DNA of 64,000 nt from Squalus acanthias (Eukaryota). The notes beneath the pieces are model-generated. The model saw only the letters and a list, made by a program, of their open reading frames with translations. It was not told the DNA's origin and made no database searches. The stretch spans positions 94,242,001 to 94,306,000 of the forward strand of contig CM059432.1 of assembly GCA_030390025.1 (NCBI GenBank). Direction: 5' to 3'. Shown here one piece after another: positions 5,961 to 54,850 of the stretch (the stretch's first letter is position 1; every line of letters begins with the position of its first letter). The position numbers and the translations under genes are program-made.

Positions 5961-8850
5961 ATAGAATCATAGAATCATAGAAAGTTACAGCACGGAAGGA
6001 GGCCATTTCGGCCCATCGTGTCCGTGCCTGCCTAATCCCATTTCCCAGCTCTTGGTCCGTAGCCCTGCAGGTTAGAGCATCCCAAGTGCACATCCAAGTA
6101 CTTTTTAAATGTGGTTAGGGTTCCTGCATCTACCACCCTTTCAGGCAGTGAGTTCCAGACCCCCACAACCCTCTGGGTGAAGAAATTTCCCTCAAATCCC
6201 CTCTAAACCTTCCACCAATTACTTTAAATGTGTGCCCCCTGGTTTTTGACCCCTTTGCTGAGGGAAATAGGTCCTTTCCATCCACTTTATCTATGCCCCT
6301 CATAATTTTATACACCTCAATAAGGTCTCCCCTCAGCCTCCTCTGTTCCAAGGAAAACAGACCCAGCCTATCCAATCTTTCCTCATAGCTAAACATAGAA
6401 GATAGGAGCAGGAGTAGGCCATTCGGCCCCTCGAGCCTGCTCCGCCATTTAATGAGATCATGGCTGATCATCCAAATTCAGTACCCTGTCCCTGCTTTCT
6501 CCCCATATCCCTTGATCCCTTTAGCCTTAAGAAATATATCTAACTCCTTCTTGAATATATTTAATGAATTGGCCTCAACTGCCTTCTGTGGTAGAGAATT
6601 CCACAGGTTCACCACTCTCTGGGTGAAGAAATTCCTCCTCATCTCAGTCCTAAATGGCTTACCCCTTATCCTTAGATTGTGACCCCTGGTTCTGGACTCC
6701 CCGGCCATCGGGAACATCCTTCCTGCATCTAGTCTATCTCGGCCTGTTAGAATTTTGTAAGTTTCAATGAGATCCCCTCTCATTCTTCTAAACTCCAGCG
6801 AGTATAAGCCCAATCGACCCAATCTCTCCTCATACGTCATTCCTGCCATCCCAGGTATCAGCCTGGTGAATCTTCGCTGCACTCCCTCCATGGCAAGAAC
6901 ATCCTTCCTCAGATAAGGTGACCAAAACTGCATACAATACTCAAGGTGTGGTCTCACCAAGGTCCTGTACGACTGCAGCAAGACATCCTTGCTCCTGTAC
7001 TTGAATCCTCTCGCTATGAAGGCCAACATACCATTTGCCTTCTTAACCGCCTGCTGCACCTGCATGCTTACCTTCAATGACTGGTGCACAAGGACTCCCA
7101 GGTCTCGTTGCACTTCCCCTTCTCCCAATCTATTGCCGTTCAGATAATAATCTGCCTTCCTGTTTTTGACACCAAAGTGGATAACCTCGCATTTATCCAC
7201 ATTATACTGCATCTGCCATGCATCTGCCCACTCACCCAACTTGTCCAAATCATACTGGAGTTTCTCTGCATCCTCCTCACAACACACACGCCCACCCAGC
7301 TTTGTGTCGTCTGCAAACTTGGAGATATTACATCTAGTTCCCTCGTCTAGATCATTAATATATATTGTGAATAACTGGGGTTCTAGCACCGATCCCTGCG
7401 GTACCCCACTAGTCACTGCCCGCCACTCGGAAAAAGACCCGTTTATTCCAACTCTTTGCTTCCTGTCTGCCAACCAGTTCTCTATCCAAGTCAGTACCTT
7501 ACCCACAATCCCATGTGCTTTAACTTTGCACTCTAATCTCTTATGCGGGACCTTATCGAAAGCCTTCTGAAAGTCCAAATACACCACATCCACTGGTTCT
7601 CCCTTATCTATTCTACCAGTTACATCCTCAAAAAATTCCAGTAGATTAGTCAAGCATGATTTACCTTTTGTAAATCCATGTTGACTTTGTCCGATCCTGT
7701 CACTGTTTTCCAAGAATCTCTACTCCCGACAACATCCTTGTAAATCTCCTCTGTACCCTCTCTAGTGCAATCACATCTTTCCTGTAATGTGGTGACCAGA
7801 ACTGCACGCAGTACTCTAGCTGAGGCCTAACTAGTGTTTTATACAGTTGAAGCATAACTCCCCTGCTCTTGTATTCTATGCCACGGCTAATAAAGGCAAG
7901 CATTCCATATGCCTTCTTAACCACCTTATCTACCTGGCCTGCTACTTTCAGGGATCTGTGGACATGCACTCCAAGGTCCCCTTGTTCCTCTGCACTACTC
8001 AGTGTCCTACCAGTGTCCCTTTCCTTGTTAGCCCTCCCCAAATGCATTACCTCACACTTCTCTGGATTGAATTCCATTTGCCACTGTTCTGCCCACCTGA
8101 CCAATTTATTGATATCTTCCTGCAGTCTACAGCTTCCTTCTTCAGTATCAACCACACAGCCGATTTTAGTATCATCTGCAAACTTCTTAATCATACCTGC
8201 TATATTCAAGTCTAGATCATTGATATATACCACAAAAAGCAAAGGACCTAGTACTGAGCCCTGCAGAACCCCACTGGAAACAGCCTTCCGGTCACAAAAA
8301 CACCCATCAACCATTACCCTCTGCTTCCTGTCTCCGAGCCAGTTTTGAATCCAACTTGACACTTTGCCTTGGATCCCCTGGGCTTTTAACTTCGTGACCA
8401 GTCTGCCATGTGGAACCTTATCAAAAGCCTTGCTAAAGTCCATATACACTACATCAAACGCACTACCCTCATCTACCCTCCTTGTTACCTCCTCAAAAAA
8501 TTCAATCAAGTTTGTCAGACACGACCTTCCCTTAACAAATCCGTGCTGACTATCCTTGATTAATCCCGTGTCTTTCTAAATGAAGATTTATCCTGTCCTT
8601 CAGAATTCTTTCCAATACTTTTCCCACCACCGAGGTTAGGCTGACTGGCCTGTAATTACTCGGTCTATCCTTTTCTCCCTTTTTAAACAAGGGTACCACA
8701 TTAGCAGTCCTCCAGTCCTCCGGCACCACACCTGAAGCCAGAGAGGATTGAAAAATGATGGTCAGGGCCTCTGCTATTTCCTCTTTTGCTTCGTTTAACA
8801 GCCTGGGATACATTTCATCCGGGCCTGGGGATTTATCCACTTTTAAAGCT
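5961..8850 (-). mobile_element. CR1 LINE, 5'-truncated, interrupted by a nested CR1
   Basis: RT ORFs 8550-8840 and 7700-8509 (QGSVLGP, FADD); 3' tail read as atagaatc repeats at 5961-5980. Confidence 0.9.
6392..7714 (-). mobile_element. Young CR1 LINE 3' fragment nested in the previous CR1
   Basis: Uninterrupted 411-aa RT ORF 6478-7713; nearly identical to copies at 26.4, 48.5 and 53.6 kb. Confidence 0.92.
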
Positions 8851-14300: not shown

Positions 14301-16050
14301 GGCATTGTCACCCTGCAGCCATGTTTCTGTAATGGCCACAAGATCATACCCATATGTAGTTATTTGTGCCATTAACTCATCTATTTTGTTACGAATGCTA
14401 CGTGCATTCAGATAGAGAACTTTCAAATATGTTTTGTGACACTTAGTTCCTGCTTTTGCCCTTTTTATTACTTTACCTTTTACTCCATACCTTCTGCCCC
14501 TTCCTGACACACTCTGGTTTTTAATTTCCCCACTGCTACCTAAGTCTATGACCTTCTCTGTTGTCATTTTTATTATTTGCTCTCTAGGAACCTCCCCCCC
14601 GCTAATTAGTTTAAAGCCCTCTCTACAGCCCTAGTTATATGATCCGCCAGGACTCTAGTCCCAGCACTGGCCAAGTGAAGCCCGTCCCAACGGAACAGCT
14701 CCCTCCTGCCCCAGTACTGGTGCCAGTGTCCCAGGAAGCAAAACCCATTTCTCCCACACCAGTCTTTGAGCCACTCATTTAACTCTCTAATTTTATTTGT
14801 CCTAGCCAAATTCGCTCGTGGCTCAGGTAATAATCCAGAGATTAATACCCTTGAGGTTCTGTTTTTTAATTTGACCCCTAGCTGCTCATACTCCTTTAAC
14901 AGAACCTGCTTCCTTGTCCTATCTACGTTGTTTGTACCAACATGGACCACGACAACTGGATCCACCCCCTCCCACTGCAAGTTTCTTTCCAGCCCAGAGG
15001 AGATGTCCTTAACCCTGGCACCGGGCAGGCAACACAGCCTACGGGACTCTTGCTCTCGGCTGCAGAGAACTCTATATATCCCCCTAATAATACTATCCCC
15101 TACCACTACAACATTTCTATTTACTCCCCCCTCTTGAATGGCCCCCCGTTCCACGGTGCTGTGGCCAGGTTGCTCATCCTCCCTGCAGTCCCTGCTCCTG
15201 TCCCCACAGGGAGTAAGAACCTCGAACCTGTTGGACAAGAGCAGGGCTGCGGCTCCTCCAACACTACCTCCTGGATCCCCGTACCTGCCTCACTCGTAGT
15301 CACACCGTCCTGTCCCTGACCATGGGCTACATCTGAATTAATTAACTTCATAGGTGTGACCACCTCCTGAAACACAAAGTCCAGGTACTTCTCCCCCACC
15401 CTGATGTGTCGCAGTGTCTGAAGCTCAGACTCCAGCTCATCAATACGGAGCTGGAGTTCCTGTAGCAGCAGACACTTGTCACAGATGTAATCACCGTGAG
15501 CCTCAATGGGGTCCACCGGCTCCCACATCTCGCAACAGTAACACATCACCTGCTCCATTCTATGTAATTAATTAAAAAAATTTATTGTTAGTTATGGACA
15601 CTCTGCCCGATTATAGATGCTAGTATCCCCTCTAATTAATTGGATTTAAATTAAATCAATCCCTCTAAATTACACCAGTTAAATGGTTTACCAACAGTCA
15701 CTCTGCACCAGAAAGGCCTTATTAACTATAACCCACAGAGTTTAAGTTTAAAAAGAGAGAAATACTCACCAACCAATTACTTACCTGCTTTCTGGTGACG
15801 TCACACCTCGATTTTTTTTACCTCTCTCCCTCCCTCCGAGTTCGGAGACTGGTCCCGCCTTACCTGGTCTCTGGAGCCTTTTAAACCCTTTGCCGCCGCC
15901 TCGCCTCACACAGGTCCGCCGCCGCACCAGGAACCTGACAAAGATGGAAAAAGGAAGGCACACCTCCCTCCCCGAACTCCCTCACTCACCAAACTCGCAG
16001 CTTAGCACTCTATTCCAAATCTGCACTCCGTGATAAACTGCACTCTAGTC
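11389..16050 (-). mobile_element. Near full-length CR1 LINE (5'UTR, ORF1 with zinc finger/coiled coil/SGNH esterase, ORF2 APE+RT)
   Basis: ORF1 pieces 15121-15558 and 14606-15238 (VVVGDS, HVGTN, DGLH); ORF2 pieces 13146-14567 and 11615-13141; one frameshift in each ORF; tail read as ataagaac repeats at 11389. Confidence 0.95.
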
Positions 16051-19889: not shown

Positions 19890-22800
19890 TAATTTGAGAA
19901 TTGAATGGGTATAAAGTGAAATCCCACTTTTGTAAATAAACACTGAAGGTTCTTTTTCTTTTTAACAGGAGTTCTTAAAATCTGTACTAAAGTATAAGTA
20001 TTAAGTTTTAAGTTTATTTCTGCTGGGTTAGTTCTTAGTCTATTAAATAGAGGCATGGCAGGGCAGCTCAGTCCCGTGGAGTGCACATCCTGTGCCATGT
20101 GTGAAGTCAAGGACGCTTCGCGTATCCTGGACGACCACATGTGCAGGAAGTGTCACCAGCTACAGCAAATCGAGCTCCGGGCTTTGGAGCTTGAGCGGCG
20201 GCTGGAGTCACTGCGGTGCATCCGCGAGGCTGAGAGTTTTGTTGATAGCACGTTTCTAGAGGTGGTCACCCCGCAGCTTAAGAGTTTGCAGGCAGAGAGG
20301 GAATGGGTGACCGCCAGACAGAAGAGGAGGACCAGGCAGGTAGTGCAGGAGTCCCCGGAGTGCATCACGCTCTCCAACCAATATTCTGTTCTGAGTACTG
20401 GTGAGGGCGATGGTTCCTCTGGGGAGTGCAGCCAGAGTCAAGTCCATGGCACCACGGGTGGCTCAGCTGCACGGGGGGAAGGAAAAAGAGTGGAAGAACA
20501 ATAGTGGTAGGGGATTCAATAGCTAGGGGAATAGACAGGCGTTTCTGCGGCCGTAGACATGACTCCAGGATGGTATGTTGCCTCCCTGGTGCCAGGGTCA
20601 AGGATGTCACTGAGCGGCTGCAGGACACTCTGAGGGGGGAGGGTGAACAGCCAGAGGTCGTTGTCCATATCGGTATCAACGACATAGGCAGAAAGAGGGA
20701 TGAGGTCCTGCAGGCAGAGTTTAGGGAGCTAGGAGAGACATTAAAAAGCAGGACCTCAAAGGTAGTAATCTCCGGATTACTCCCAGTGCCACGTGCTAGT
20801 GAGTACAGGAATAGGAGGATAGAACAGATGAATACGTGGCTGGAGAGATGGTGCAGGAGGGAAGGCTTTAGATTCCTGAGGCATTGGGACCATTTCTGGG
20901 GAAGTTGGGACCTGTACAAGCCGGACGGGTTACACCTCAACAGAGCTGGGACCAATATTCTTGCGGGGAGGTTGGTTAGTGCTGTTGGGGAGGGTTTAAA
21001 CTAGCTTGGCAGGGGGATGGGCACCAGCATATAGGAGTAGAAAAGAAGAATAAGGTGCATAACAGAGTGAGTGTGTTGGATAGTACTAGAGAAGATAGTA
21101 CTAGAGGCGGTAGTAGTACCATATAAGATAGGAGCAGACTAAGAAAGACTACGAAAAATTCAAAAATGGGTTTAGAATGCATGTACGTAAACACACAAAT
21201 GTGGTGAATAAGGTTGGTGAGCTTCAAGCACAATTAGCCGTATGGAAATATGATATTGTGGCAATAACGGAAACGTGGCTTAAAAATGGTGAGGACTGGG
21301 CACTTAATATTCAAGGGTACAAGGTGTTCAGAAAAGATAGGGAAGGAAAAAAGGCAGGTGGGGTGACAGTGCTGATTAAAGAAGACATTGTAGTGTTGGA
21401 AAAGGAGGATGTTCTTGAGGGGACAAGGACAGAATCCACTTGGTTAGAGTTAAGGAGCATAAAGGGTATGATCATGCTATGGGGGTATTCTATAGGCCTC
21501 CAAATAGAGAGAGGGAGGTAGGGGAGCAAATCTGCAGGGAAATCGCAGAGATATGCAAGAGCTATAGAGTGGTGATATTGGGGGACTTTAATTACCCAAA
21601 TATTGATTGGGATAATGCTAGAGTAAAGGAAAAGGAGGGGGAGGAATTTCTGAAATGTGTTCAGGAGAATTTCCTTGATCAATATGTTCTTGGCCCAGCT
21701 AGGAAGGAGGCATTGTTGGATCTGGTGCTGGGGAATGAGGTGGGCCAGGTCGACCAAGTGTCTGTGGGAGAACACTTGGGTACGAGTGATCATCATATCG
21801 TAAGATTTAGATTAGCAATGGAGAGGAGCAAGGAACAATCTAGAGTGGAACTTCTAAACTGGAATAGGGCTAACTTCAATGGGATGCTAAAGGATCTAGC
21901 CAGGGTTAAATGGGACCAAAGACTGACAGGAAAAACTGTAATGGAGCAATGGGTGATCTTTAAGGAGGAGATGTTCCAAGTACAGGCTAGGTACATTCCA
22001 GCAAGAGGGAAGGGTAAGGGATCCAAAGCAAGGGCTCCTTGGAATACGAGGGAGATAGAGAAGATGATGAAACAAAAAAAGAGGGTGTATGATGAATGTC
22101 AGGTGAATTCTTCAAGGGAGAACCAGATCAAATACAATAAGTTGTGCGGGGATGTGAAGATGAAAGTACGATTGGCAAAGAGAGAATATGAGAGTAGAAT
22201 GGCGGTTAACATAAAAGGGAACCCAAAAATCTTCTACCGGCATGTAAACAGTAAGCGGGTAATAAGAGGCGGGGTGGGGCCTATTAGCGACAAAGAAGGT
22301 GATATATGCTTAGAGGCGCAGGGCAAGGCTAGAATACGCAATGAGTACTTTGTATCGGTGTTTACTAAGGAGGTGGATGCTGACAAAATATTGGTAGAAG
22401 TGGAAAAGCTAGAAGCAATGGAAGGGGTGAAAATTGATAGACAGGATGTACTAGAAAGGCTGGATATGCTTAGAGTGGACAAGTCGCCTGGTCCAGATGG
22501 CTTACATCCCAGGTTGCTAAGGGAATTGGGAGAGGAGATAGCGGAAGGGCTTGCCATAATTTTACAATCTTCCCTAGATGCGGGGGAGGCGCCTGAGGAT
22601 TGGAAAGTGGCAAATGTGACACCATTGTTCAAGAAAGGGTGTAAGGACAATCCTTGTAACTACAGGCCGGTCAGTTTAACATCAGTGGTGGTTAAAGTTT
22701 TAGAAACAATAATCAAGGAAAAAATTAACGGGCACTTGGAGAGGTTTAAGCTAACTAAGGAGAGCCAACACAGATTTGTAAAAGGCAGATCGTGTTTGAC

Positions 22801-25824: not shown

Positions 25825-26435
25825 ATAGGAATATAGGAATTACTAGATGAAAAAAGACCAAGGTCTATTTAGTTTGCCTTCTACCATCCTGGCAGTCACA
25901 TGATACAATGATAATGGAATGGTTGACTAATTATACCAATCAATCTCTATCAATTAGTCTACAACAGACCCAGGCATGACACAAGGAACATCCTAGTGGT
26001 GGAGAGCTTTGGGAACAATAGGTCCAAAGTCACCTGTTCCTCCCAAGCATGCTACACTTACCACATGTCATGTCTCAAATTACTCATATCCCAAAATGTT
26101 ACTTTTCTGAAAGAAATCTATCCAATTTGCATTTGAATGAATGAATACTAACTGCTTGCTTCCACCATCTCCCTAGAGAGCCTATTCCATAGATTGACCA
26201 CTCGCTCACTGAAATATTGTTTTGAATTTACCCCCCTTCCAGCGCAGGCCATGTCCTCTGGTTGTACTGTTCTGGACAAGGTGAAATAGCTTGTCATGGT
26301 CTACATTATCTAATTGCTTTAGAATCCTAAAAACAGCAATCATCTCACCTCTCAACTTTCACTTTTCCAGTGAGAACTTGCCCAATTTACATAATTGCTC
26401 CCAATAATCCATTCCCTCCATCCCCTCAATCATTC
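25825..26435 (-). mobile_element. Old, diverged CR1 3' end; continues at 30529-30925
   Basis: ataggaat-repeat tail and degenerate RT C-terminus; its RPHLE...IERIQKTATR continuation lies beyond the nested younger CR1. Confidence 0.65.
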
Positions 26436-29400
26436 ATAGAAACATAGAAGATAGAAGCAGGAGTAGGCCATTCGGCCCTTCAAGCCTGCTCCGCCATTCA
26501 ATGAGATCATGGCTGATCAAACAAATTCAGTACCCTGCCCCTGCTTTCTCCCCATATCCCTTGATCCCTTTAGCCTTAAGAACTATATCTAACTCCTTCT
26601 TGAATATATTTAATGATTTGGCCTCAACTGCCTTCTGTGGTAGAGAATTCCACAGGTTCACCACTCTCTGGGTGAAGAAATTCCTCTTCATCTCAGTCCT
26701 AAATGGCTTACCCCTTATCCTTAGACTGTGACCCCTGGTTCTGGACTCACCGGCCATCTGGAACATCCTTCCTGCATCTAGTCTGTCTAGTCCTGTTAGA
26801 ATTTTATAAGTTTCAATGAGATCCCCTCTCATTCTTCTAAACTTGAGCGAGTATAAGCCTAATCAACCCAATCTCTCTTCATATGTCATCCCTGCCATCC
26901 CAGGTATCAGTCTGGTGAATCTTCGCTGCACTCCCTCCATGGCAAGAACATCCTTCCTCAGATAAGGCGACCAAAACTGCACACAATACTCAAGGTGTGG
27001 TCTCACCAAGGCCCTGCACAACTGCAGCAAGATATCCCTGCTCCTGTACTTGAATCCTCTCGCTATGAAGGCCAACATACCATTTGCCTTCTTAACCGCC
27101 TGCTGCACCTGCATGCTTACCTTCAGCGATTGGTGCACAAGGACACCCAGGTCTCGTTGCACCTCCCCTTTTCCCAATCTATTGCTGTTTAGATAATAAT
27201 CTGCCTTCCTGTTTTTGCCACTAAAGTGGATAACCTCACATTTATCCACATTATACTGCATCTGCCATGCATTTGCCCACTCACCCAACCTGTCCAAATC
27301 ATACTGGCGTTTCTCTGCATCCTCCTCACAGCACACTCGCCCACCCAGCTTTGTGTCGTCTGCAAACTTGGAGATATTACATCTAGTTCCCTCGTCTAAA
27401 TCATTAATATATATTGTGAATAGCTGGGGTCCCAGCACCGATCCCTGCGGTACCCCACTAGTCACTGCCTGCCACTCGGAAAAAGAACCGTTTATTCCAA
27501 CTCTTTGCTTCCTGTCTGCCAACCAGTTCTCTATCCAAGTCAGTACCTTACCCCCAATCCCATGTGCTTTAACTTTGTATGCTAATCTCTTATACGGGAC
27601 CTTATCGAAAGCCTTCTGAAAGTCCAAATACACCACATCCACTGGTTCTCCCTTATCAATTCTACCAGTTACATCCTCAAAAAATTCCATTAGATTTGTC
27701 AAGCACGATTTACCTTTTGTAAATCCATGTTGACTTTGTCCGATCCTGTCACTGTTTTCCAAGTGCACTGCTATTACATCTTTTATAATGGACTCTAGCA
27801 TTTTCCCCACTACCAATGTCAGGCTTACCGGTCTATAATTCCCCGTTTTCTCTCTACCACCTTTTTTAAATAGTGGGGTTACATTAGCTACCCTCCAATC
27901 CATGGAAACTGTTCCAGAGTTTATAGAATTTTGAAAGATGACCAGCAATGCATCTACTATTTCTAGAGCCACTTCCTTAAGTACCCTGGGATGTAGATTA
28001 TCAGGCCGTGGGGATTTATCGGCCTTCAATCCCGTCAATTTCCCTAACACCATTTCCCTACAAATACTGATTTCATTCAGTTCCTCCCTCTCATTAGACC
28101 CTATGTTCCCCGACCTCTCTGGGAGGTTATTTGTGTCCTCCTTTGTGAAGACAGAACCAAAGTATGTATTTAATTGGTCTGCCATTTCTTTGTTCCCCAG
28201 TATAAATTCCCCTGATTCTGACTGCAAGGGACCTACGCTTGACTTCACTCTGCGTCTTAATGAAGAATTCTGTCATATTATGATCGCTCTTCCCCAAGGG
28301 ACCTCGCACAACAAGACTGCTAATGAATCCTTTCTCATTACATAATACCCAGTCTACGATGGCCTGATCTCTAGTTGGTTCCTCGACATATTGGTCCAGG
28401 AAACCATCCCGTATACACTCTAGGAATTCCTCCTCCACAGTATTGTTACTAATTTGGTTAGCCCAATCTATATGCAGATTAAAGTCACCCATGATAACTG
28501 CTGTGCCCTTATTGCACGCATCTCTAATTTCCTGTTTAATGCCATCCCCAACCTCACCACTACTGTTTGGGGGTTTGTATACAACTCCCACTAACATTTT
28601 CTGCCCCTTGGTATTTCGCATCTCTACCCATACAGATTCCACATCATCCGAGCTAATATCCTTCCTTACTATTGTGTTAATCTCCTCTTTAACCAGCAAC
28701 GCTACCCCACCTCCTTTTCCTTTTTGCCTGTCCTTCCTGAAAATTGAATACCCCTGGATGTTGAGTTCCCAGCCTTGGTCACCCTGGAGCCATGTCTCCG
28801 TAATCCCAATTATATCATATCCGTTTACATCTATTTGCGCAGCTAATTCATCTACCTTATTACAAATGCTCCTCGCATTAAGACACAAAGCCTTCAGGCT
28901 TGTTTTTTTTAACACTCTTAGTCCTTTTGAATTATTTTTAACTGTGGCCCTGTTTGATTTACACCCTTGATTTCTCTGCTTCCACTTTTGTTTTTCTCCT
29001 TCCTATCTTTTGCTTCTATCCTTGTTTCCCTTTTCTCTGTCTCCCTGCACAGGTTCCCAACCCCCTGCCATTTTTAGTTTAAACCCTCCCCAACAGCACT
29101 AGCAAACACTCCCCCTGGGACATCGGTCCCAGTCCTGCCCAGGTGCAAACCGTCCAGTTTGTACTGGTCCAATCTCCCCCAGAACCGGTTCCAATGTCCC
29201 AGGAATTTGAATCCCTCCCCATGCACCATTCCTCTAGCCACGTATTCATCTGAAATATCCTGCTATTTCTACTCTGACTAGCACGTGGCACTGGTAGCAA
29301 TCCTGAGATTACTACCTTTGAGGTCCTATTTTTTAATTTACCTCCTAACTCCCTATATTCAGCTTTTAGGACCTCATCCCGTTTTTTACCTATATCGTTG

Positions 29401-47272: not shown

Positions 47273-47478
47273 TGAGTGATACTGAGGCCCACTTAACTGA
47301 TCTCCCCTACACCATTCACATTGAGTGATACTGAGGCCTGCTTAACTGATCTCCCCTACACCATTCACATTGAGTGATACTGAGGCCCACTTAACTGATC
47401 TCCCCTACATCATTCACATTGAGTGATACTGAGGCCCGTTTAATTGATCCCCCCTACACCATTCACATTAACTGATCC
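47273..47478. repeat. 49-bp minisatellite, 4 copies; resumes at 51548-51620
   Basis: Unit tgagtgatactgaggcccacttaactgatctcccctacaccattcacat starts at 47273, 47322, 47371, 47420. Confidence 0.95.
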
Positions 47479-48533
47479 AGGTTGAGACCAGTGTCCTGGC
47501 AAATCCAATACCTAGGGCTGTAGATAGGGCTTTAAACTAAATAGTGGGGAGGAATACGCTGACTTTAAAAAGTCAAAGAAAAATGAGAAGGCAAAAGTGC
47601 AGGGTAGCGATAGGGGTACTGATAACCAGAGTGTGACAGGAAGGGACAGAGCGTATACACATAAGAGTGCATCAAAAAGTGGGGTCAGAGTAGGGAAAAA
47701 TGATAAAAAGACAACATTAAAAGCTCTATATCTGAGCGCACGCAGCATTCGTAACAAGATAGATGAGTTGACAGCACAAATAGAAATAAATGGGTATGAT
47801 CTGATAGCCATTACAGAGACGTGGTTGCAAGGTGACCAAGGCTGGGAACTGAATATTCAGGGGTATTTTGCCATTTCGTAAGGATAGGCCGAAAGGAAAA
47901 GGAGGTGGTGTAGCTCTGTTAATAAGGGATGAGATCAGTGCAGTAATGAGAAATGATATTGGCCTAGAAGATCAAGACGTACAATCAGTTTGGGTGCAGA
48001 TAAGAAATAATAAGGGTAAGAAGTCACTGGTGGGAGTGGTCTACAGGCCCCCAAACAGTAGCCACACTGTAGGACAGAGTATAAATCAAGAAATAATAGA
48101 GGCTTGTAAGAAAGGTACGACTATAATCATGGGAGATTTTAATCTTCATATTGATTGGACAAAGCAAATTGGCAAAGGTAGACTTGAGGAAGAGTTCTTA
48201 GAGTGTATACGGGATGGTTTCTTGGAACAATACGTTGTGGAACCAACCAGGGAGAAGACTATTTTAGATCGGGTAATGTGTAACGAGGCTGGATTAATTA
48301 ATGATCTCGAAGTGAAGGATCCTCTTAGGAAGAGTGATCATAGCATGGTAGAATTTCAAATTCAGTTTGAGGGTGAGAAAGCTAGGTCTCAAACTAGTGT
48401 CCTGAACTTAAACAAAGGTAATTACAAAGGTATGAAGGCAGACTTGGTTAAAGTGAACTGGGAAAATATATTACAGGGTAAAACTGTAGAAAAGCAGTGG
48501 CAAACATTTAACGAGATATTTCATAACTCTCAG

Positions 48534-49424
48534 CTGTGAGGAGGATGCAGAGAAACTCCAGTATGATTTGGACAGGTTGGCTGATTGGGCAGGTGCATGG
48601 CAGATGCATGTGGATAAATGCGAGGTTATCCACTTTGGTGGCAAAAACAGGAAGACAGATTATTATCTGAACGGCAATAGATTGGGAAAAGGGGAAGTGC
48701 AACGAGATCTGGGAGTCCTTGTGCACCAGTCGCTGAAGGTAAGCATGCAGGTGCAGCAGGCGGTTAAGAAGGCAAATAGTATGTTGGCCTTCATAGCGAG
48801 AGGATTCGAGTACAGGAGCAAGGATGTCCTGCTGCAGTTGTACAAGGCCTTGGTGAGACCACACCTTGAGTATTGTGTGCAGTTTTGGTCGCCTTATCTG
48901 AGGAAGGATGTTCTTGCCATGGAGGGAGTGCAGCGAAGATTTACCAGACTGATACCTGGGATGGCAGGAATGACGTATGAAGAGAGATTGGGTCAATTAG
49001 GCTTATATTCGCTAGAGTTTAGAAGAATGAGAGGGGATCTCATTGAAACTTATAAAATTCTAACAGGACTAGACAGACTAGATGCAGGAAGGATGTTCCC
49101 GATGGCGGGGGAGTCCAGAACCAGAGGTCACAGTCTAAGGATAAGGGGTAAGCCATTTAGGACTGAGATGAGGAGGAATTTCTTCACCCAGAGAGTGGTG
49201 AACCTGTGGAATTCTCTACCACAGAAGGCAGTTGAGGCCAATTCATTAAATATATTCAAGAAGGAGATAGATATATTTCTTAAGGCTAAAGGGATCAAGG
49301 GATATGGGGAGAAAGCAGAGACAGGGTACTGAATTTGGATGATGAGCCATGATCTCATTAAATGGCGGAGCAGGCTCGAGGGGCCGAATGGCCTACTCCT
49401 GCTCCTATCTTCTATGCTTCTATG
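48534..49424 (+). mobile_element. Young CR1 3' fragment nested in the previous CR1
   Basis: ORF 48568-49332; host frame NSQ|QRYIP resumes after its ttctatg tail. Confidence 0.9.
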
Positions 49425-49711
49425 CAAAGATATATTCCAGTGAGAAAGAAACACTCTAAGAGAAGGATGAACTATCCGTGGCTAACTAAGGAAGTAAAGG
49501 ATGGTATCAAATTGAAAACAAAAGCATACAATGTTGCGAAGAATAGTGAAAGGCCAGAGGATTGGGAAATTTTTAAAAACCAGCAAAGGATGACTAAAAA
49601 AATGATAAAGAGAGAGAAGATAGCTTATGAGAGTAAGCTAGCAAGAAAAATAAAAACAGACAGTAAGAGCATCTAGAGGTATATAAAAAGGAAGAGAGTA
49701 GCTAAAGTAAA

Positions 49712-49781
49712 ATAACAACAGAAAACGCTGGAAAAACTCAGCAGGCCAGGCAGCATCCGTGGAGAGAGAAAGAGAGAAAGA
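49712..49781 (-). mobile_element. Short Penelope-like terminal fragment with 12-bp TSD
   Basis: Reverse complement of ~1214-1274; agctaaagtaaa at 49700-49711 and 49782-49793. Confidence 0.8.
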
Positions 49782-52149
49782 AGCTAAAGTAAACGTTGGT
49801 CCCCTAGAGGATGGGTCTGGGGTATTAATAATGGGAAACAGGGAAATGGCAGAGACTTTGAACAAATATTTTGTATCGGTCTTCACGGTAGAAGACACTA
49901 AAAGCACCCCAATAATGGATAATCAAGGAGCTATTGGGGTGGGGGGGGGGGGGGGAACTTAAAACAATCACTAGAGAGAAAGTACCAGGCAAACTAATGG
50001 GACTAAAGGTGGACAAGTCCCCTGGACCAGATGGCCTGCATCCTAGAGTCTTAAAAGAGGTGGCTGCAGAGATAGTGGATGCATTGGTTATAATCTACCA
50101 AAATTCCCTGGATTCTGGAGAGGTCCCAGCGGACTGGAAAACCGCAAATGTAATGCCCCTATTTAAGAAAGGAGGGAGACAGAAAGCAGGCAACTATCGA
50201 CCAGTTAGCCTAACATCTGTCATTGGGAAAATACTGGAGTCCATCATTAAGGAAGTGGTAGCAAGACATTTAGAAAATCATAATATAGTCCAGCAGAGTC
50301 AGCATGGTTTTGTGAAAGGGAAATCATGTTTGACAAATTTGCTGGAGTTCTTTGAGGATGTAACTAGCAGGGTGGATAAAGGGGAACCAGTAGATGTCGT
50401 GTATTTTGATTTCCAGAAGGCATTCGATAAGTCGCCACATAAAAGGTTACTACACAAGATAAGAGCTCACGGGGTTGGGGGTAATATATTAGCATGGATA
50501 GAGGATTGGCTAACTAAGAGAAAACAGAGAGTCGGGATAAATGGGTCATTTTCAGGTTGGCAAACTGTATCTAGTGGGGTGCCGCAGGGATCAGTGCTGG
50601 GGCCTCAACTATTTACAATCTATATTAATGACTTGGATGAAGGGACTGAGTGTAATGTAGCCAAATTTGCTGATGATACAAAGATAGGTGGGAAAGCAAA
50701 TTGTGTGGAGGACACAAAGAATCTCCAAAGGGGCATAAGTGAGTGGGCAAAAATTTGGCAGATGGATTTTAATGTGGGAAAATGCAAGGTTATCCACTTT
50801 GGCAGGAAAAATAAAAAAGCAAATTATTATTTAAATGGGGAGAGATTACAAAATGCTGAGGTACAGAGGGATCTGGGGGTCCTTATACATAAATCACAAA
50901 AAGTTAGCATGCAGGAAGGCAAATGGAGTGTTGGCCTTTATTGCAAAGGGAATGGAGTATAAAAGTAGGGAAGTCCTGTTACAACTGTACAGGGTGTTGG
51001 TGAGACCACACCTGGAGTACTGCGTACAGTTTTGGTCTCCTTATTTAAGGAAGGATATACTTGCATTGGAGGCAGTTCAGAGAAGGTTCACGAGGTTGAT
51101 TCCGGAGATGAAGGGGTTGTCTTGAGCAGGTTGGGCCTATACTCATTGGAGTTTAGAAGAATGAGAGGGGATCTTATTGAAACATGTAAGATTCTGAAGG
51201 GGCTTGACAGGGTAGATGCAGAGAGGATGTTTCCCCTTGTGGGAGAATCTAGAACTAGGGGGCATAATTTCAGAATAAGGGGGCACCCTTTTAAATCGGA
51301 AATTAGGAGGAATTTCTTCTCTCAGAGGGTCGTGAATCTTTGGAATTCTCTTCCCCAGAGAGCTGTGGAGGCTGGGTCATTGGCTATATTTAAGGTAGAG
51401 ATAGACAGATTTTTGAAAGGTAAGGGAGTGAAGGTTTATGGGGAGCAGGCAGGGAAGTGGAGTTGAGGCCAAGATCAGATCAGCCATGATCTTATTGAAT
51501 GGCGGAGCAGGCTCGAGGGGCCAAATGACGTACGTTTTATGTTCTTATGATCCCCCCTACACCATTCACATTGAGTGATACTGAGGCCTGCTTAACTGAT
51601 CTCCCCTACAACATTCACATGGCACTTTCCTGTGTTATTGGTGAGAACCATCAGAGTCACTTGTGTCAGTCTTATTTGTGGAGATATTTATTCTAATCTT
51701 CCTGCTAGCCATGACACATCTCTATAGGTGTATCCTTTCTCATAGAAGCAAATTTCAAAAGTGCTAATAATTATGTCATTCAATTGCACAGGTTTTACAT
51801 ACTACAAAAGGAATTCAATTAAATCCTATCTTTTTTACCTATTAGATTTATTGCTGGGTAATTAAACCCATGCACTAAAATTATTCTTAATTGGGGCTTT
51901 TGTAGTCATGAATGCAAAAGTCAATGAACTGAATAGACTCGATCATTGCAGCAACATTAAAGTCAAATATATAATTTAGTGAAATCCAATAATCTCACAA
52001 AATTCCACATTTTATGTTTCACACATTGAACAGATAGGCATATAACATTGTCATGAAAACACACTGTTGCAATATTTATCTCAATGATTTGTAAATAGTA
52101 ATTAAGTGGAAAACAGCCGGCGTGCTTGTAGTGTTTTTCATTTCATCAC

Positions 52150-53562: not shown

Positions 53563-54850
53563 GACAAAAGGTAAATCGTGCTTGACTAATCTACTAGAAT
53601 TTTTTGAGGATATAACTGGTAAAATAGATAAGGGAGAACCAGTGGATGTGGTGTATTTGGACTTTCAGAAGGGTTTCGATAAGGTCCCGCATAAGAGATT
53701 AGCGTGTAAAGTTAAGGCACATGGGATTGGGGGCAAGTTATTGACTTGGATAGAGAACTGGTTGGCAGACAGAAAGCAAAGAGTTGGAATAAATGAGTCT
53801 TTTTCCGAGTGGCAGGCAGTGACTAGTGGGGTACCGCAGGGATCGGTCCTAGGACCCCAGCTATTCACAATATATATTAATGATCTAGACGAGGGAATTG
53901 GATGTAATGTCTCCAAGTTTGCAGACGACACAAAGCTGGGTGGGAGTGTGTGCCATGAGGAGGATGCAGAGAAACTCCAGTATGATTTGGACAGGTTGTG
54001 TGATTGGGCAGAAGCATGGCAGATGCAATATAATGTGGATAAATGCGAGGTTATCCACTTTGGTGTCAAAAACAGGAAGGCAGATTATTATCTGAATGGC
54101 AATAGATTGGGAGAAGGGGAAGTACAACGAGACCTGGGTGTCCTTGTGCACCAGTCGCTGAAGGTAAGCATGCAGGTGCAGCAGGCGGTTAAGAAGGCAA
54201 ATGGTATGTTGGCCATCGTAGCGAAAGGGTTCGAGTACAGGAACAAGGATGTCTTGCTGCAGTTGTACAGGGCCTTGGTGAGACCACATCTTGAGTATTG
54301 TGTGCAGTTTTGGTCGCCTTATCTGAGGAAGGATGTTCTTGCCATGGAGGGAGTGCAGCGAAGATTCACCAGGCTGATACCTGGGATGGCAGGAATGACG
54401 TATGAGGAGAGATTGGGTCGATTGGGCTTATACTCGCTGGAGTTTAGAAGAATGAGAGGGGATCTCATTGAAACTTATAAAATTCTAACAGGACTAGACA
54501 GACTAGATGCAGGAAGGATGTTCCAGATGGCCGGGGAGTCCAGAACCAGGGGTCACAGTCTAAGGATAAAGGGGAAGCCATTTAGAACTGAGATGAGGAG
54601 GAATTTCTTCACCCAGAGAGTGGTGAACCTGTGGAATTCTCTACCACAGAAGGCAGTAGAGGCCAATTCATTAAATATATTCAAGAAGGAGTTAGATATA
54701 TTTCTTAAGGCTAAAGGGATCAAGGGATATGGGGAGAAGGCAGGGACAGGGTACTGAATTTGGATGATCAGCCATGATCTCATTGAATGGCGGAGCAGGC
54801 TCGAGGGGCTGAATGGCCTGCTCCTGCTCCTATCTTCTATGTTTCTATGA
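53563..54850 (+). mobile_element. Young CR1 LINE 3' fragment
   Basis: Uninterrupted RT ORF to 54757; near-identical to 6392-7714. Confidence 0.93.

What the first reader, a model, noticed from the sequence alone, without database searches (positions are those of the whole stretch)
47531..47760. Third CR1 family: slippery heptamer with an open, AUG-free -1 frame into the endonuclease
GCT TTA AAC TAA (heptamer 47531-47537). The -1 frame (LNSGEEYADFKKS...TTLKALYLSARSIRNK) is open with no in-frame ATG before the APE motif, which is hard to explain by AUG reinitiation and fits frameshifting.
Basis: partly seen in the sequence, partly recalled or inferred. Interest (0 to 1): 0.7.

Follow-up and report, generated by a model that had tools for sequence, protein, structure and literature searches.

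The report
Conserved frameshift signal in CR1 retrotransposons
This dead jumping-gene copy keeps a ribosome-slipping signal that related elements from sharks to invertebrates also keep at the same spot, so these elements probably make their copying enzyme by a virus-style frameshift, which is predicted here and not yet tested.

Summary
Observation confirmed. T TTA AAC (47531-37) is followed by the ORF1 stop, and the -1 frame runs open, without ATG, into the endonuclease. The copy itself is a dead, 5'-truncated CR1-type LINE, probably from a shark. The comparative data carry the case. All 4 window junctions, and 25 of 30 distinct copies fetched through ORF1 alone, keep TTTAAAC+stop, although their linkers are only 32-83% alike. 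Six different linker lengths all keep the -1 frame. An intact invertebrate-type copy reads 962 codons from the heptamer, with its first Met behind the endonuclease's first conserved Asn. ORF1 proteins of snake, turtle, lizard, bird, ray and teleost end in LN. A G-tract sits at +9 to +16 in 10 of 10 families, with no conserved hairpin. Against: one ray family has UAAUG at the stop, shark ORF1s carry a TURBS-like UGGGA, and the linker shows no codon-position bias. Best reading: programmed -1 frameshifting yields an ORF1-ORF2 fusion (0.75, untested). Ten literature searches found no such report, but three key older CR1 papers were not read. This scan noted a frameshifting LINE once before, on other DNA (e1-7349909).

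The parts
47273..47476 (.). 49-bp minisatellite (4.2 copies) into which the element inserted; further units follow the element at about 51550-51620
47445..47469 (+). Left target-site duplication (25 nt; right copy 51548-51572). It lies inside a tandem repeat, so its exact ends are uncertain
47470..51549 (+). 5'-truncated, dead CR1-type LINE copy
47483..47540 (+). Last ~19 codons and TAA of ORF1 (esterase C-terminal helix, ...RAVDRALN*)
   Evidence: homology to the -14615 ORF1 end, which is a GDSL/SGNH esterase
47531..47537 (+). Slippery heptamer T TTA AAC (U_UUA_AAC)
   Evidence: consensus X_XXY_YYZ from PMC3542737
47538..47540 (+). ORF1 stop codon directly 3' of the heptamer
47546..47549 (+). 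G-tract at +9 to +12 after the heptamer (4 G here, 5-7 G in the other nine families); candidate stimulator
47531..47881 (+). Open -1 frame: ATG-free linker, then the start of the APE endonuclease
47597..47599 (+).
47714..47746 (+). First APE motif (L-Y-L-x-A-R-S); the conserved Asn codon 47735-37 is Ser in this copy only
47853..48536 (+). Rest of the APE domain, in another frame after a one-base break near 47866
48537..49424 (+). Nested 3' fragment of a younger CR1 family (94-95% identical to three other window copies)
49703..49776 (.). Second small nested repeat
49916..50962 (+). Reverse transcriptase part of ORF2
14609..14615 (-). Same heptamer+TAA in a related copy with a full esterase; -1 frame open for 489 codons, one linker ATG
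20995..21001 (+). Same heptamer+TAG in a third family; APE motif in the -1 frame, one stop and a Met in the linker
29077..29083 (-). Same heptamer+TAA in a fourth family; decayed linker, probably two offsetting one-base indels
   Evidence: comparison with P0169/P0170

Best explanation
The site is the relic of a programmed -1 ribosomal frameshift by which this lineage of esterase-ORF1 CR1 LINEs expresses ORF2. Most ribosomes read UUA AAC and stop at UAA/UAG, giving ORF1p that ends in Leu-Asn. A minority slip back one base on U_UUA_AAC, read CUA in the -1 frame, pass a free-evolving 30-65-residue linker and make an ORF1-endonuclease-RT fusion, much like Gag-Pol. Shown: the sequence anatomy and its conservation. 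Inferred: that slippage happens, its rate, and the fusion protein. The stimulator is probably the adjacent stop plus the G-tract at +9 to +16, acting through a bound protein or through pairing with the element's 3' end; neither is shown.
For: (1) TTTAAAC+TAR in 4 of 4 window junctions and in 25 of 30 distinct copies located by their ORF1 tail without the heptamer; the other 5 depart from the motif by one or two bases (18 of the 30 are one family in G001). (2) TTTAAACTA is invariant in 10 of 10 family representatives whose linkers are 32-83% identical. Codon-usage chance for T|TTA|AAC is 0.007-0.035 per family (families not independent). (3) Heptamer-to-Asn distances of 105, 117, 132, 195, 204 and 207 nt are all multiples of 3. 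(4) Of 24 outside copies with heptamer and APE motif, 16 keep the -1 frame; 15 of these 16 are stop-free and 16 of 16 are Met-free. (5) L089 reads 962 codons from the heptamer to the ORF2 stop, first Met 14 codons behind the APE Asn. (6) 14 of 17 ORF1 homologues and 60 of 150 cluster representatives end in LN, 10 in GN and 2 in KN. These fit U_UUA_AAC, G_GGA_AAC and A_AAA_AAC, three of the four shiftiest heptamers named in PMC5009743; DNA for the GN/KN families was not seen. The residue before LN can end in T in 59 of 60 (background 0.80). (7) LN ends occur in snake, turtle, lizard, bird, ray and teleost proteins. (8) Contrast: a related esterase LINE without the heptamer has an AUG three codons after the stop, in frame with its APE (L037/L038, one family).
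Against: No experiment. No conserved 3' hairpin at 5-9 nt: +1..+70 folds at only -2.5 to -10.4 kcal/mol, z -2.9 to +0.6; pseudoknots were not modelled. Linker differences fall 45:45:44 on the three codon positions against 14:14:64 in APE, so the linker shows no amino-acid selection. 8 of 24 outside copies are out of frame, read here as decay. The representatives L041 and L045 were picked as in-frame copies (11 of 16 and 1 of 2 in their families). A ray family reads FKLM, which implies UAAUG, in 3 of 3 cluster members. UGGGA lies 55 nt upstream of the stop in 3 of 3 full window ORF1s. The ORF1 profile itself ended in LN, which may favour LN-ending hits.
Confidence: 0.75

Rival explanations
1. 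Termination-reinitiation. Ribosomes stop at the ORF1 stop, stay tethered by an upstream UGGGA (TURBS-like) motif and restart at an overlapping or nearby AUG or non-AUG codon in the -1 frame, as in SART1 (UAAUG). It may act alone or beside frameshifting in some families.
For: Ray family FKLMWQG implies UAAUG (P0170, P0203, P0204). UGGGA at -55 in the three full window ORF1s, and implied for this family by a loose-end consensus. TURBS-driven reinitiation can use non-AUG codons (PMC3542737). Linker Mets occur in W14615, W20995, P0169, P0171 and P0010.
Against: No AUG before the APE motif in 16 of 16 in-frame outside copies or in this copy. Near-cognate codons share no position. UGGGA is absent from -55 in 6 of 6 non-shark families and there matches Ala-Gly-Thr codons. 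Gene callers need a Met, so Met-led proteins are over-sampled. This reading does not explain the exact heptamer or the LN/GN/KN ends.
Confidence: 0.13
2. TTTAAACTAR and the G-tract are conserved for another reason (an RNA packaging or ORF1p-binding site, or a required C-terminal Leu-Asn), and ORF2 is made by an IRES or other non-AUG route.
For: The linker shows no codon-position bias. An intergenic IRES with non-AUG start has been floated for non-LTR elements (PMC3894237).
Against: A protein-level need does not fix TTA, AAC and the preceding T. An RNA site does not require frame-keeping lengths or stop-free linkers (shuffle chance 0.006-0.22 per intact family). The linker is unstructured.
Confidence: 0.07
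3. The frames are joined at RNA level, by splicing or by polymerase slippage adding one base at TTTAAA.
For: Database models P0010 and P0203 run through ...GG-FKL... into APE.
Against: Those models are most simply single copies with an upstream indel. The homopolymers are only 3 nt long. The six joints listed in the laid contigs are each seen in one contig. A reverse-transcribed joined RNA should leave fused copies, and none of the 25 heptamer copies lacks the stop (selected on the stop, so a weak test).
Confidence: 0.05

Closest known systems
CR1-clade LINEs with an esterase ORF1 (ZfL2-1 ORF1p, PDB 4C1B; PMC3905857, passages read; shark/ray HER1 listed in PMC3747384, table passage)
   Same: SGNH esterase ORF1 (profile hits 4C1B at E 1.4e-42), APE and RT in ORF2, RT 49% identical to a swallow element.
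   Different: The passages read say nothing on how ORF2 is expressed ('frameshift' 0 times in PMC3905857). Whether this family is HER1 itself was not tested.
Viral and retroviral -1 programmed frameshift signals with U_UUA_AAC (coronavirus IBV; HTLV-1 pro-pol, search listing only)
   Same: Same heptamer, in the right phase, joining an abundant structural ORF to a polymerase ORF.
   Different: No local pseudoknot or hairpin was found; a stop follows at once; a single G-tract sits where the stimulator should be.
Protein-stimulated frameshifting of arteriviruses (nsp1beta with PCBP) and long-range stimulators (barley yellow dwarf virus)
   Same: Precedents for a stimulator that is not a local fold (PMC5009743; PMC3542737). 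That PCBP binds a short C-rich motif about 10 nt downstream is recalled.
   Different: Here the motif is G-rich. No binding partner is known, and the 3'-end pairing shows no covariation.
SART1 UAAUG termination-reinitiation and L1 unconventional ORF2 translation
   Same: Same problem: ORF2 from a bicistronic LINE RNA (PMC3894237, PMC3708506). One ray family may have UAAUG.
   Different: These give a separate ORF2p; most families here have no AUG before the endonuclease. That L1 tolerates loss of its AUG is recalled.

Membership tests
-1 programmed ribosomal frameshift signal | Heptamer X_XXY_YYZ in phase with the upstream ORF | tested here: met
   definition
-1 programmed ribosomal frameshift signal | Downstream ORF open in the -1 frame from the heptamer | tested here: met
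   (15 of 16 in-frame copies stop-free; 8 of 24 out of frame)
-1 programmed ribosomal frameshift signal | Heptamer conserved beyond protein need | tested here: met
-1 programmed ribosomal frameshift signal | Local stimulatory hairpin or pseudoknot 5-9 nt downstream | tested here: not met
   (nested folds only; pseudoknots not modelled)
-1 programmed ribosomal frameshift signal | Alternative stimulator by long-range pairing with the 3' end | tested here: inconclusive
-1 programmed ribosomal frameshift signal | Measured frameshifting or trans-frame peptide | not testable with these tools
   needs a reporter, ribosome profiling or mass spectrometry
CR1-clade LINE | ORF2 with APE endonuclease and reverse transcriptase | tested here: met
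CR1-clade LINE | ORF1 with SGNH esterase (also found in RTEX and Penelope-like elements) | tested here: met
   on sister copies; only the last ~19 codons remain in this copy
CR1-clade LINE | Short tandem-repeat 3' end, 5' truncation and target-site duplication | tested here: met
   that these typify CR1 is recalled
CR1-clade LINE | RT tree placement in CR1 proper rather than L2 or Crack | not tested
   no named reference set on hand; only 49% RT identity to a bird element and recalled motifs
TURBS-type termination-reinitiation | UGGGA 40-90 nt upstream of the stop | tested here: inconclusive
   at -55 in 3 full window ORF1s, -81 and -79 in 2 outside families, none in range in 4
TURBS-type termination-reinitiation | Start codon overlapping or next to the stop | tested here: not met
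   absent here and in 16 of 16 in-frame outside copies; implied in one ray family

The most novel reading that the evidence does not exclude
A whole animal-wide lineage of CR1 LINEs, including the dominant retrotransposons of birds, reptiles and sharks, makes its reverse transcriptase only as an ORF1-ORF2 fusion by -1 frameshifting. The shift is driven not by a local RNA fold but by a G-tract that binds a host or element protein or pairs with the RNA's own 3' end, so that only full-length RNA makes the enzyme. Sister lineages swapped the heptamer for G_GGA_AAC or A_AAA_AAC.
Probability: 0.3. Interest if true: 0.85.

Novelty: new variant of a known kind. Interest (0 to 1): 0.66.

Why it matters
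How LINEs translate ORF2 is named as an open question in PMC3894237, which discusses reinitiation, IRESs and 2A but, in the two thirds read, not frameshifting. A 7-nt signal kept from invertebrates to birds makes the question testable with one reporter. If true, CR1 ORF2p is a fusion with an esterase and coiled-coil domain, annotations that start ORF2 at a Met are wrong, and LINEs have converged on the Gag-Pol strategy. A frameshift without a local fold would also be a rare kind of signal. The locus itself is an ordinary dead copy.

Tried and rejected
No genome is held for the window, so no genome-wide family alignment was possible. Viral contigs gave nothing for ORF1 or for heptamer+stop+G-tract (0 matches). 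Run search: no RNA holder listed on record; X15 is only guessed to be RNA, so nothing is said on expression. Raw-read runs X21 and X22 gave 6 and 0 reads, no test. Local hairpin: not found. Pairing of the G-tract with upstream ORF1 sites: best partners lie at differing positions, rejected. Pairing with the 3' end (lead from e1-7349909), probe +6..+20: the last 70 nt rank among the best windows in 5 of 6 elements (0-4 of 123-145 windows as good) and fail in this copy (133 of 191), whose 3' UTR lacks the pyrimidine tract. But shuffled probes did as well in 54-132 of 300 for four elements (6 of 300 for L092), own pairs were not better than swapped pairs, and the tract sits in a local hairpin: inconclusive. 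Amino-acid selection on the linker: none. Stop readthrough: rejected because APE is in the -1 frame. Rows left out: of 58 loci, many are bacterial esterases or other elements without an APE downstream; they were not counted as CR1 junctions. Literature: searches found no paper on CR1 frameshifting. Kapitonov and Jurka 2003 is not held. Haas 1997 was seen only as a reference title and Kajikawa 1997 is only recalled; any of them may have noted the overlap. No supplements were opened.

Full report
1. What is at the coordinates. The window reads ...GAT AGG GCT TTA AAC TAA: TTTAAAC at 47531-47537, TAA at 47538-47540. The -1 frame is open from 47528 to 47881 and has no ATG; it runs through a 60-codon linker into the first endonuclease motif. 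The site lies about 60 nt inside a 5'-truncated LINE, 47470-51549, flanked by a 25-nt duplication inside a 49-bp minisatellite. The copy is dead: about 19 ORF1 codons remain, the conserved Asn of the first APE motif is Ser, the frame breaks near 47866, and a younger CR1 fragment is nested at 48537-49424. Pfam finds APE and RT in this copy and a GDSL esterase in the ORF1 of two sister copies; the ORF1 profile's best solved relative is the ZfL2-1 esterase. The named close relatives are shark and ray proteins. I call the element CR1-type from this architecture and recalled motifs; no RT tree was built.

2. Is it chance? TTTAAACTAR occurs 5 times in the window against 0.53 expected, and 4 are ORF1 ends of CR1 copies. 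The open linker arose in 0.8% of shuffles, the lack of ATG in 26%. So the missing ATG is weak alone; conservation has to carry the case.

3. No genome is held, so I laid public contigs on 47478-47900 (4217 records of X5, 258 of X15; the two raw-read runs gave 6 and 0 reads). No other letter is listed across the heptamer and stop or at GTG 47597. 44 rows were hidden; shown rows all have about 27% share or more in some run, from which I infer that no majority change is hidden. None of the listed majority changes makes an in-frame ATG (my reading of the table). Minority changes at 47651 and 47652 could make one if they occur together, and a ray protein starts at about that place (P0171). 47553-47567 is thinly covered and differs by insertions, so it stays open.

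4. Relatives. Scans with ORF1 esterase motifs that exclude the C-terminus returned 40 metagenome and 18 genome loci, and 30 more, largely overlapping, from three of those genomes. The CR1-like ones look like animal DNA inside microbial assemblies (inference), 29-43% identical in ORF1 for those used as family representatives. Located by the ORF1 tail alone, 25 of 30 distinct copies have TTTAAAC+TAR; 18 of the 30 are one family. Of 24 with an APE motif in reach, 16 keep the -1 frame, 15 of these are stop-free and all 16 Met-free; 8 are out of frame, 4 in each other frame. L089 is open for 962 codons from the heptamer, with its first Met 14 codons behind the APE Asn; that this Asn is catalytic is recalled. 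Across 10 family representatives TTTAAACTA is invariant while linkers are 32-83% alike, and six linker lengths all keep frame. Two representatives were chosen as in-frame copies, and the ten fall into about four independent lineages. Codon usage gives T|TTA|AAC a chance of 0.007-0.035 per family.

5. Protein-level breadth. 14 of 17 ORF1 homologues end in LN. Of the best 150 clusters at 50% identity, 60 end in LN, 10 in GN and 2 in KN; the profile ended in LN, which may bias this. LN, GN and KN are what U_UUA_AAC, G_GGA_AAC and A_AAA_AAC encode, and these are three of the four shiftiest heptamers named in PMC5009743. The residue before LN has a T-ending codon available in 59 of 60 cases (background 0.80; binomial 2e-5, not independent). 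Named LN-ending members come from a snake, turtles, two lizards and a swallow, and from rays, a shark and a teleost. No DNA was seen for these. One heptamer-less relative has an AUG three codons after its stop, in frame with APE.

6. Stimulator. No conserved hairpin follows the site. A run of 4-7 G starts 9-12 nt after the heptamer in 10 of 10 families, against a 3.8% chance per 8-nt window in these elements, and in 23 of 25 outside copies. Here the 3' end is among the best partners in 5 of 6 elements, but shuffles and swapped pairs do about as well. Unresolved.

7. Evidence against. The linker has no codon-position bias (45:45:44; APE 14:14:64): it fits a free linker but gives no proof of coding. 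A ray family reads FKLM, implying UAAUG, in 3 of 3 members, and the three full window ORF1s have UGGGA at -55. Together these match the TURBS pattern described in PMC3542737. Both are missing from the six non-shark families at that position. Linker Mets occur in 3 of 4 window copies, one of them probably made by an indel.

8. Mechanism. Most likely a programmed -1 frameshift gives a minor ORF1-linker-APE-RT fusion, setting a low ORF2:ORF1 ratio (0.75). Reinitiation 0.13, another role for the motif 0.07, RNA-level joining 0.05. Anatomy and conservation are shown; slippage, fusion protein and stimulator are inferred.

9. Literature. Ten searches listed no paper on frameshifting in CR1. PMC5009743: passages only, first 300,000 of 449,034 characters held; 'CR1' 0 times. 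PMC3894237: parts 1-2 of 3 read. PMC3708506 and PMC2881922: passages; 'frameshift' 0 times. PMC3905857, PMC3542737, PMC4255032, PMC5408684, PMC3747384: passages. The original CR1 descriptions were not read (for one), so the overlap may have been remarked before; I put the chance that the heptamer claim is unpublished at about 0.6.

10. Verdict. Real feature, in a dead copy, pointing to a widely conserved and apparently untested recoding signal. New variant of a known kind; interest 0.66.

Noticed in passing
window 20994-21001 (+) and 29077-29086 (-): In these two families the bases before the heptamer are GGG, giving G GGT TTA AAC: a G_GGU_UUA heptamer one codon upstream of U_UUA_AAC, so two overlapping slippery sites.
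   Followed up: no
proteins P0074, P0088, P0093, P0096, P0101, P0106, P0109, P0117, P0144, P0153: Ten ORF1 clusters end in GN (nine in QGN), predicted G_GGA_AAC; three others end in FR (FFR, GFR). No DNA seen.
   Followed up: partly
proteins P0015-P0017 and relatives (L045/L048 family): An invertebrate-type CR1 ORF1 carries an SH3 domain in front of the esterase (precomputed Pfam PF00018).
   Followed up: no
G001 (L041-L088), G002, G003: Assemblies filed as bacterial genomes hold many near-intact CR1 copies, i.e. host DNA; G001 has at least 18 copies and one with an intact 962-codon ORF2 (L089).
   Followed up: partly
window 6384-7281, 26435-27332, 48537-49424, 53956-54849: Four 3' fragments of one young CR1 family, 94-95% identical to the nested one, all matching over the same ~895 nt.
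   Followed up: no
I did not test whether they are the same.
   Followed up: no
protein P0010: A ray gene model named 'hydroxyacid oxidase 2 isoform X1' is in fact a CR1 ORF1-ORF2 read-through; P0011 ('40S ribosomal protein S24 isoform X2') is a CR1 ORF1.
   Followed up: no
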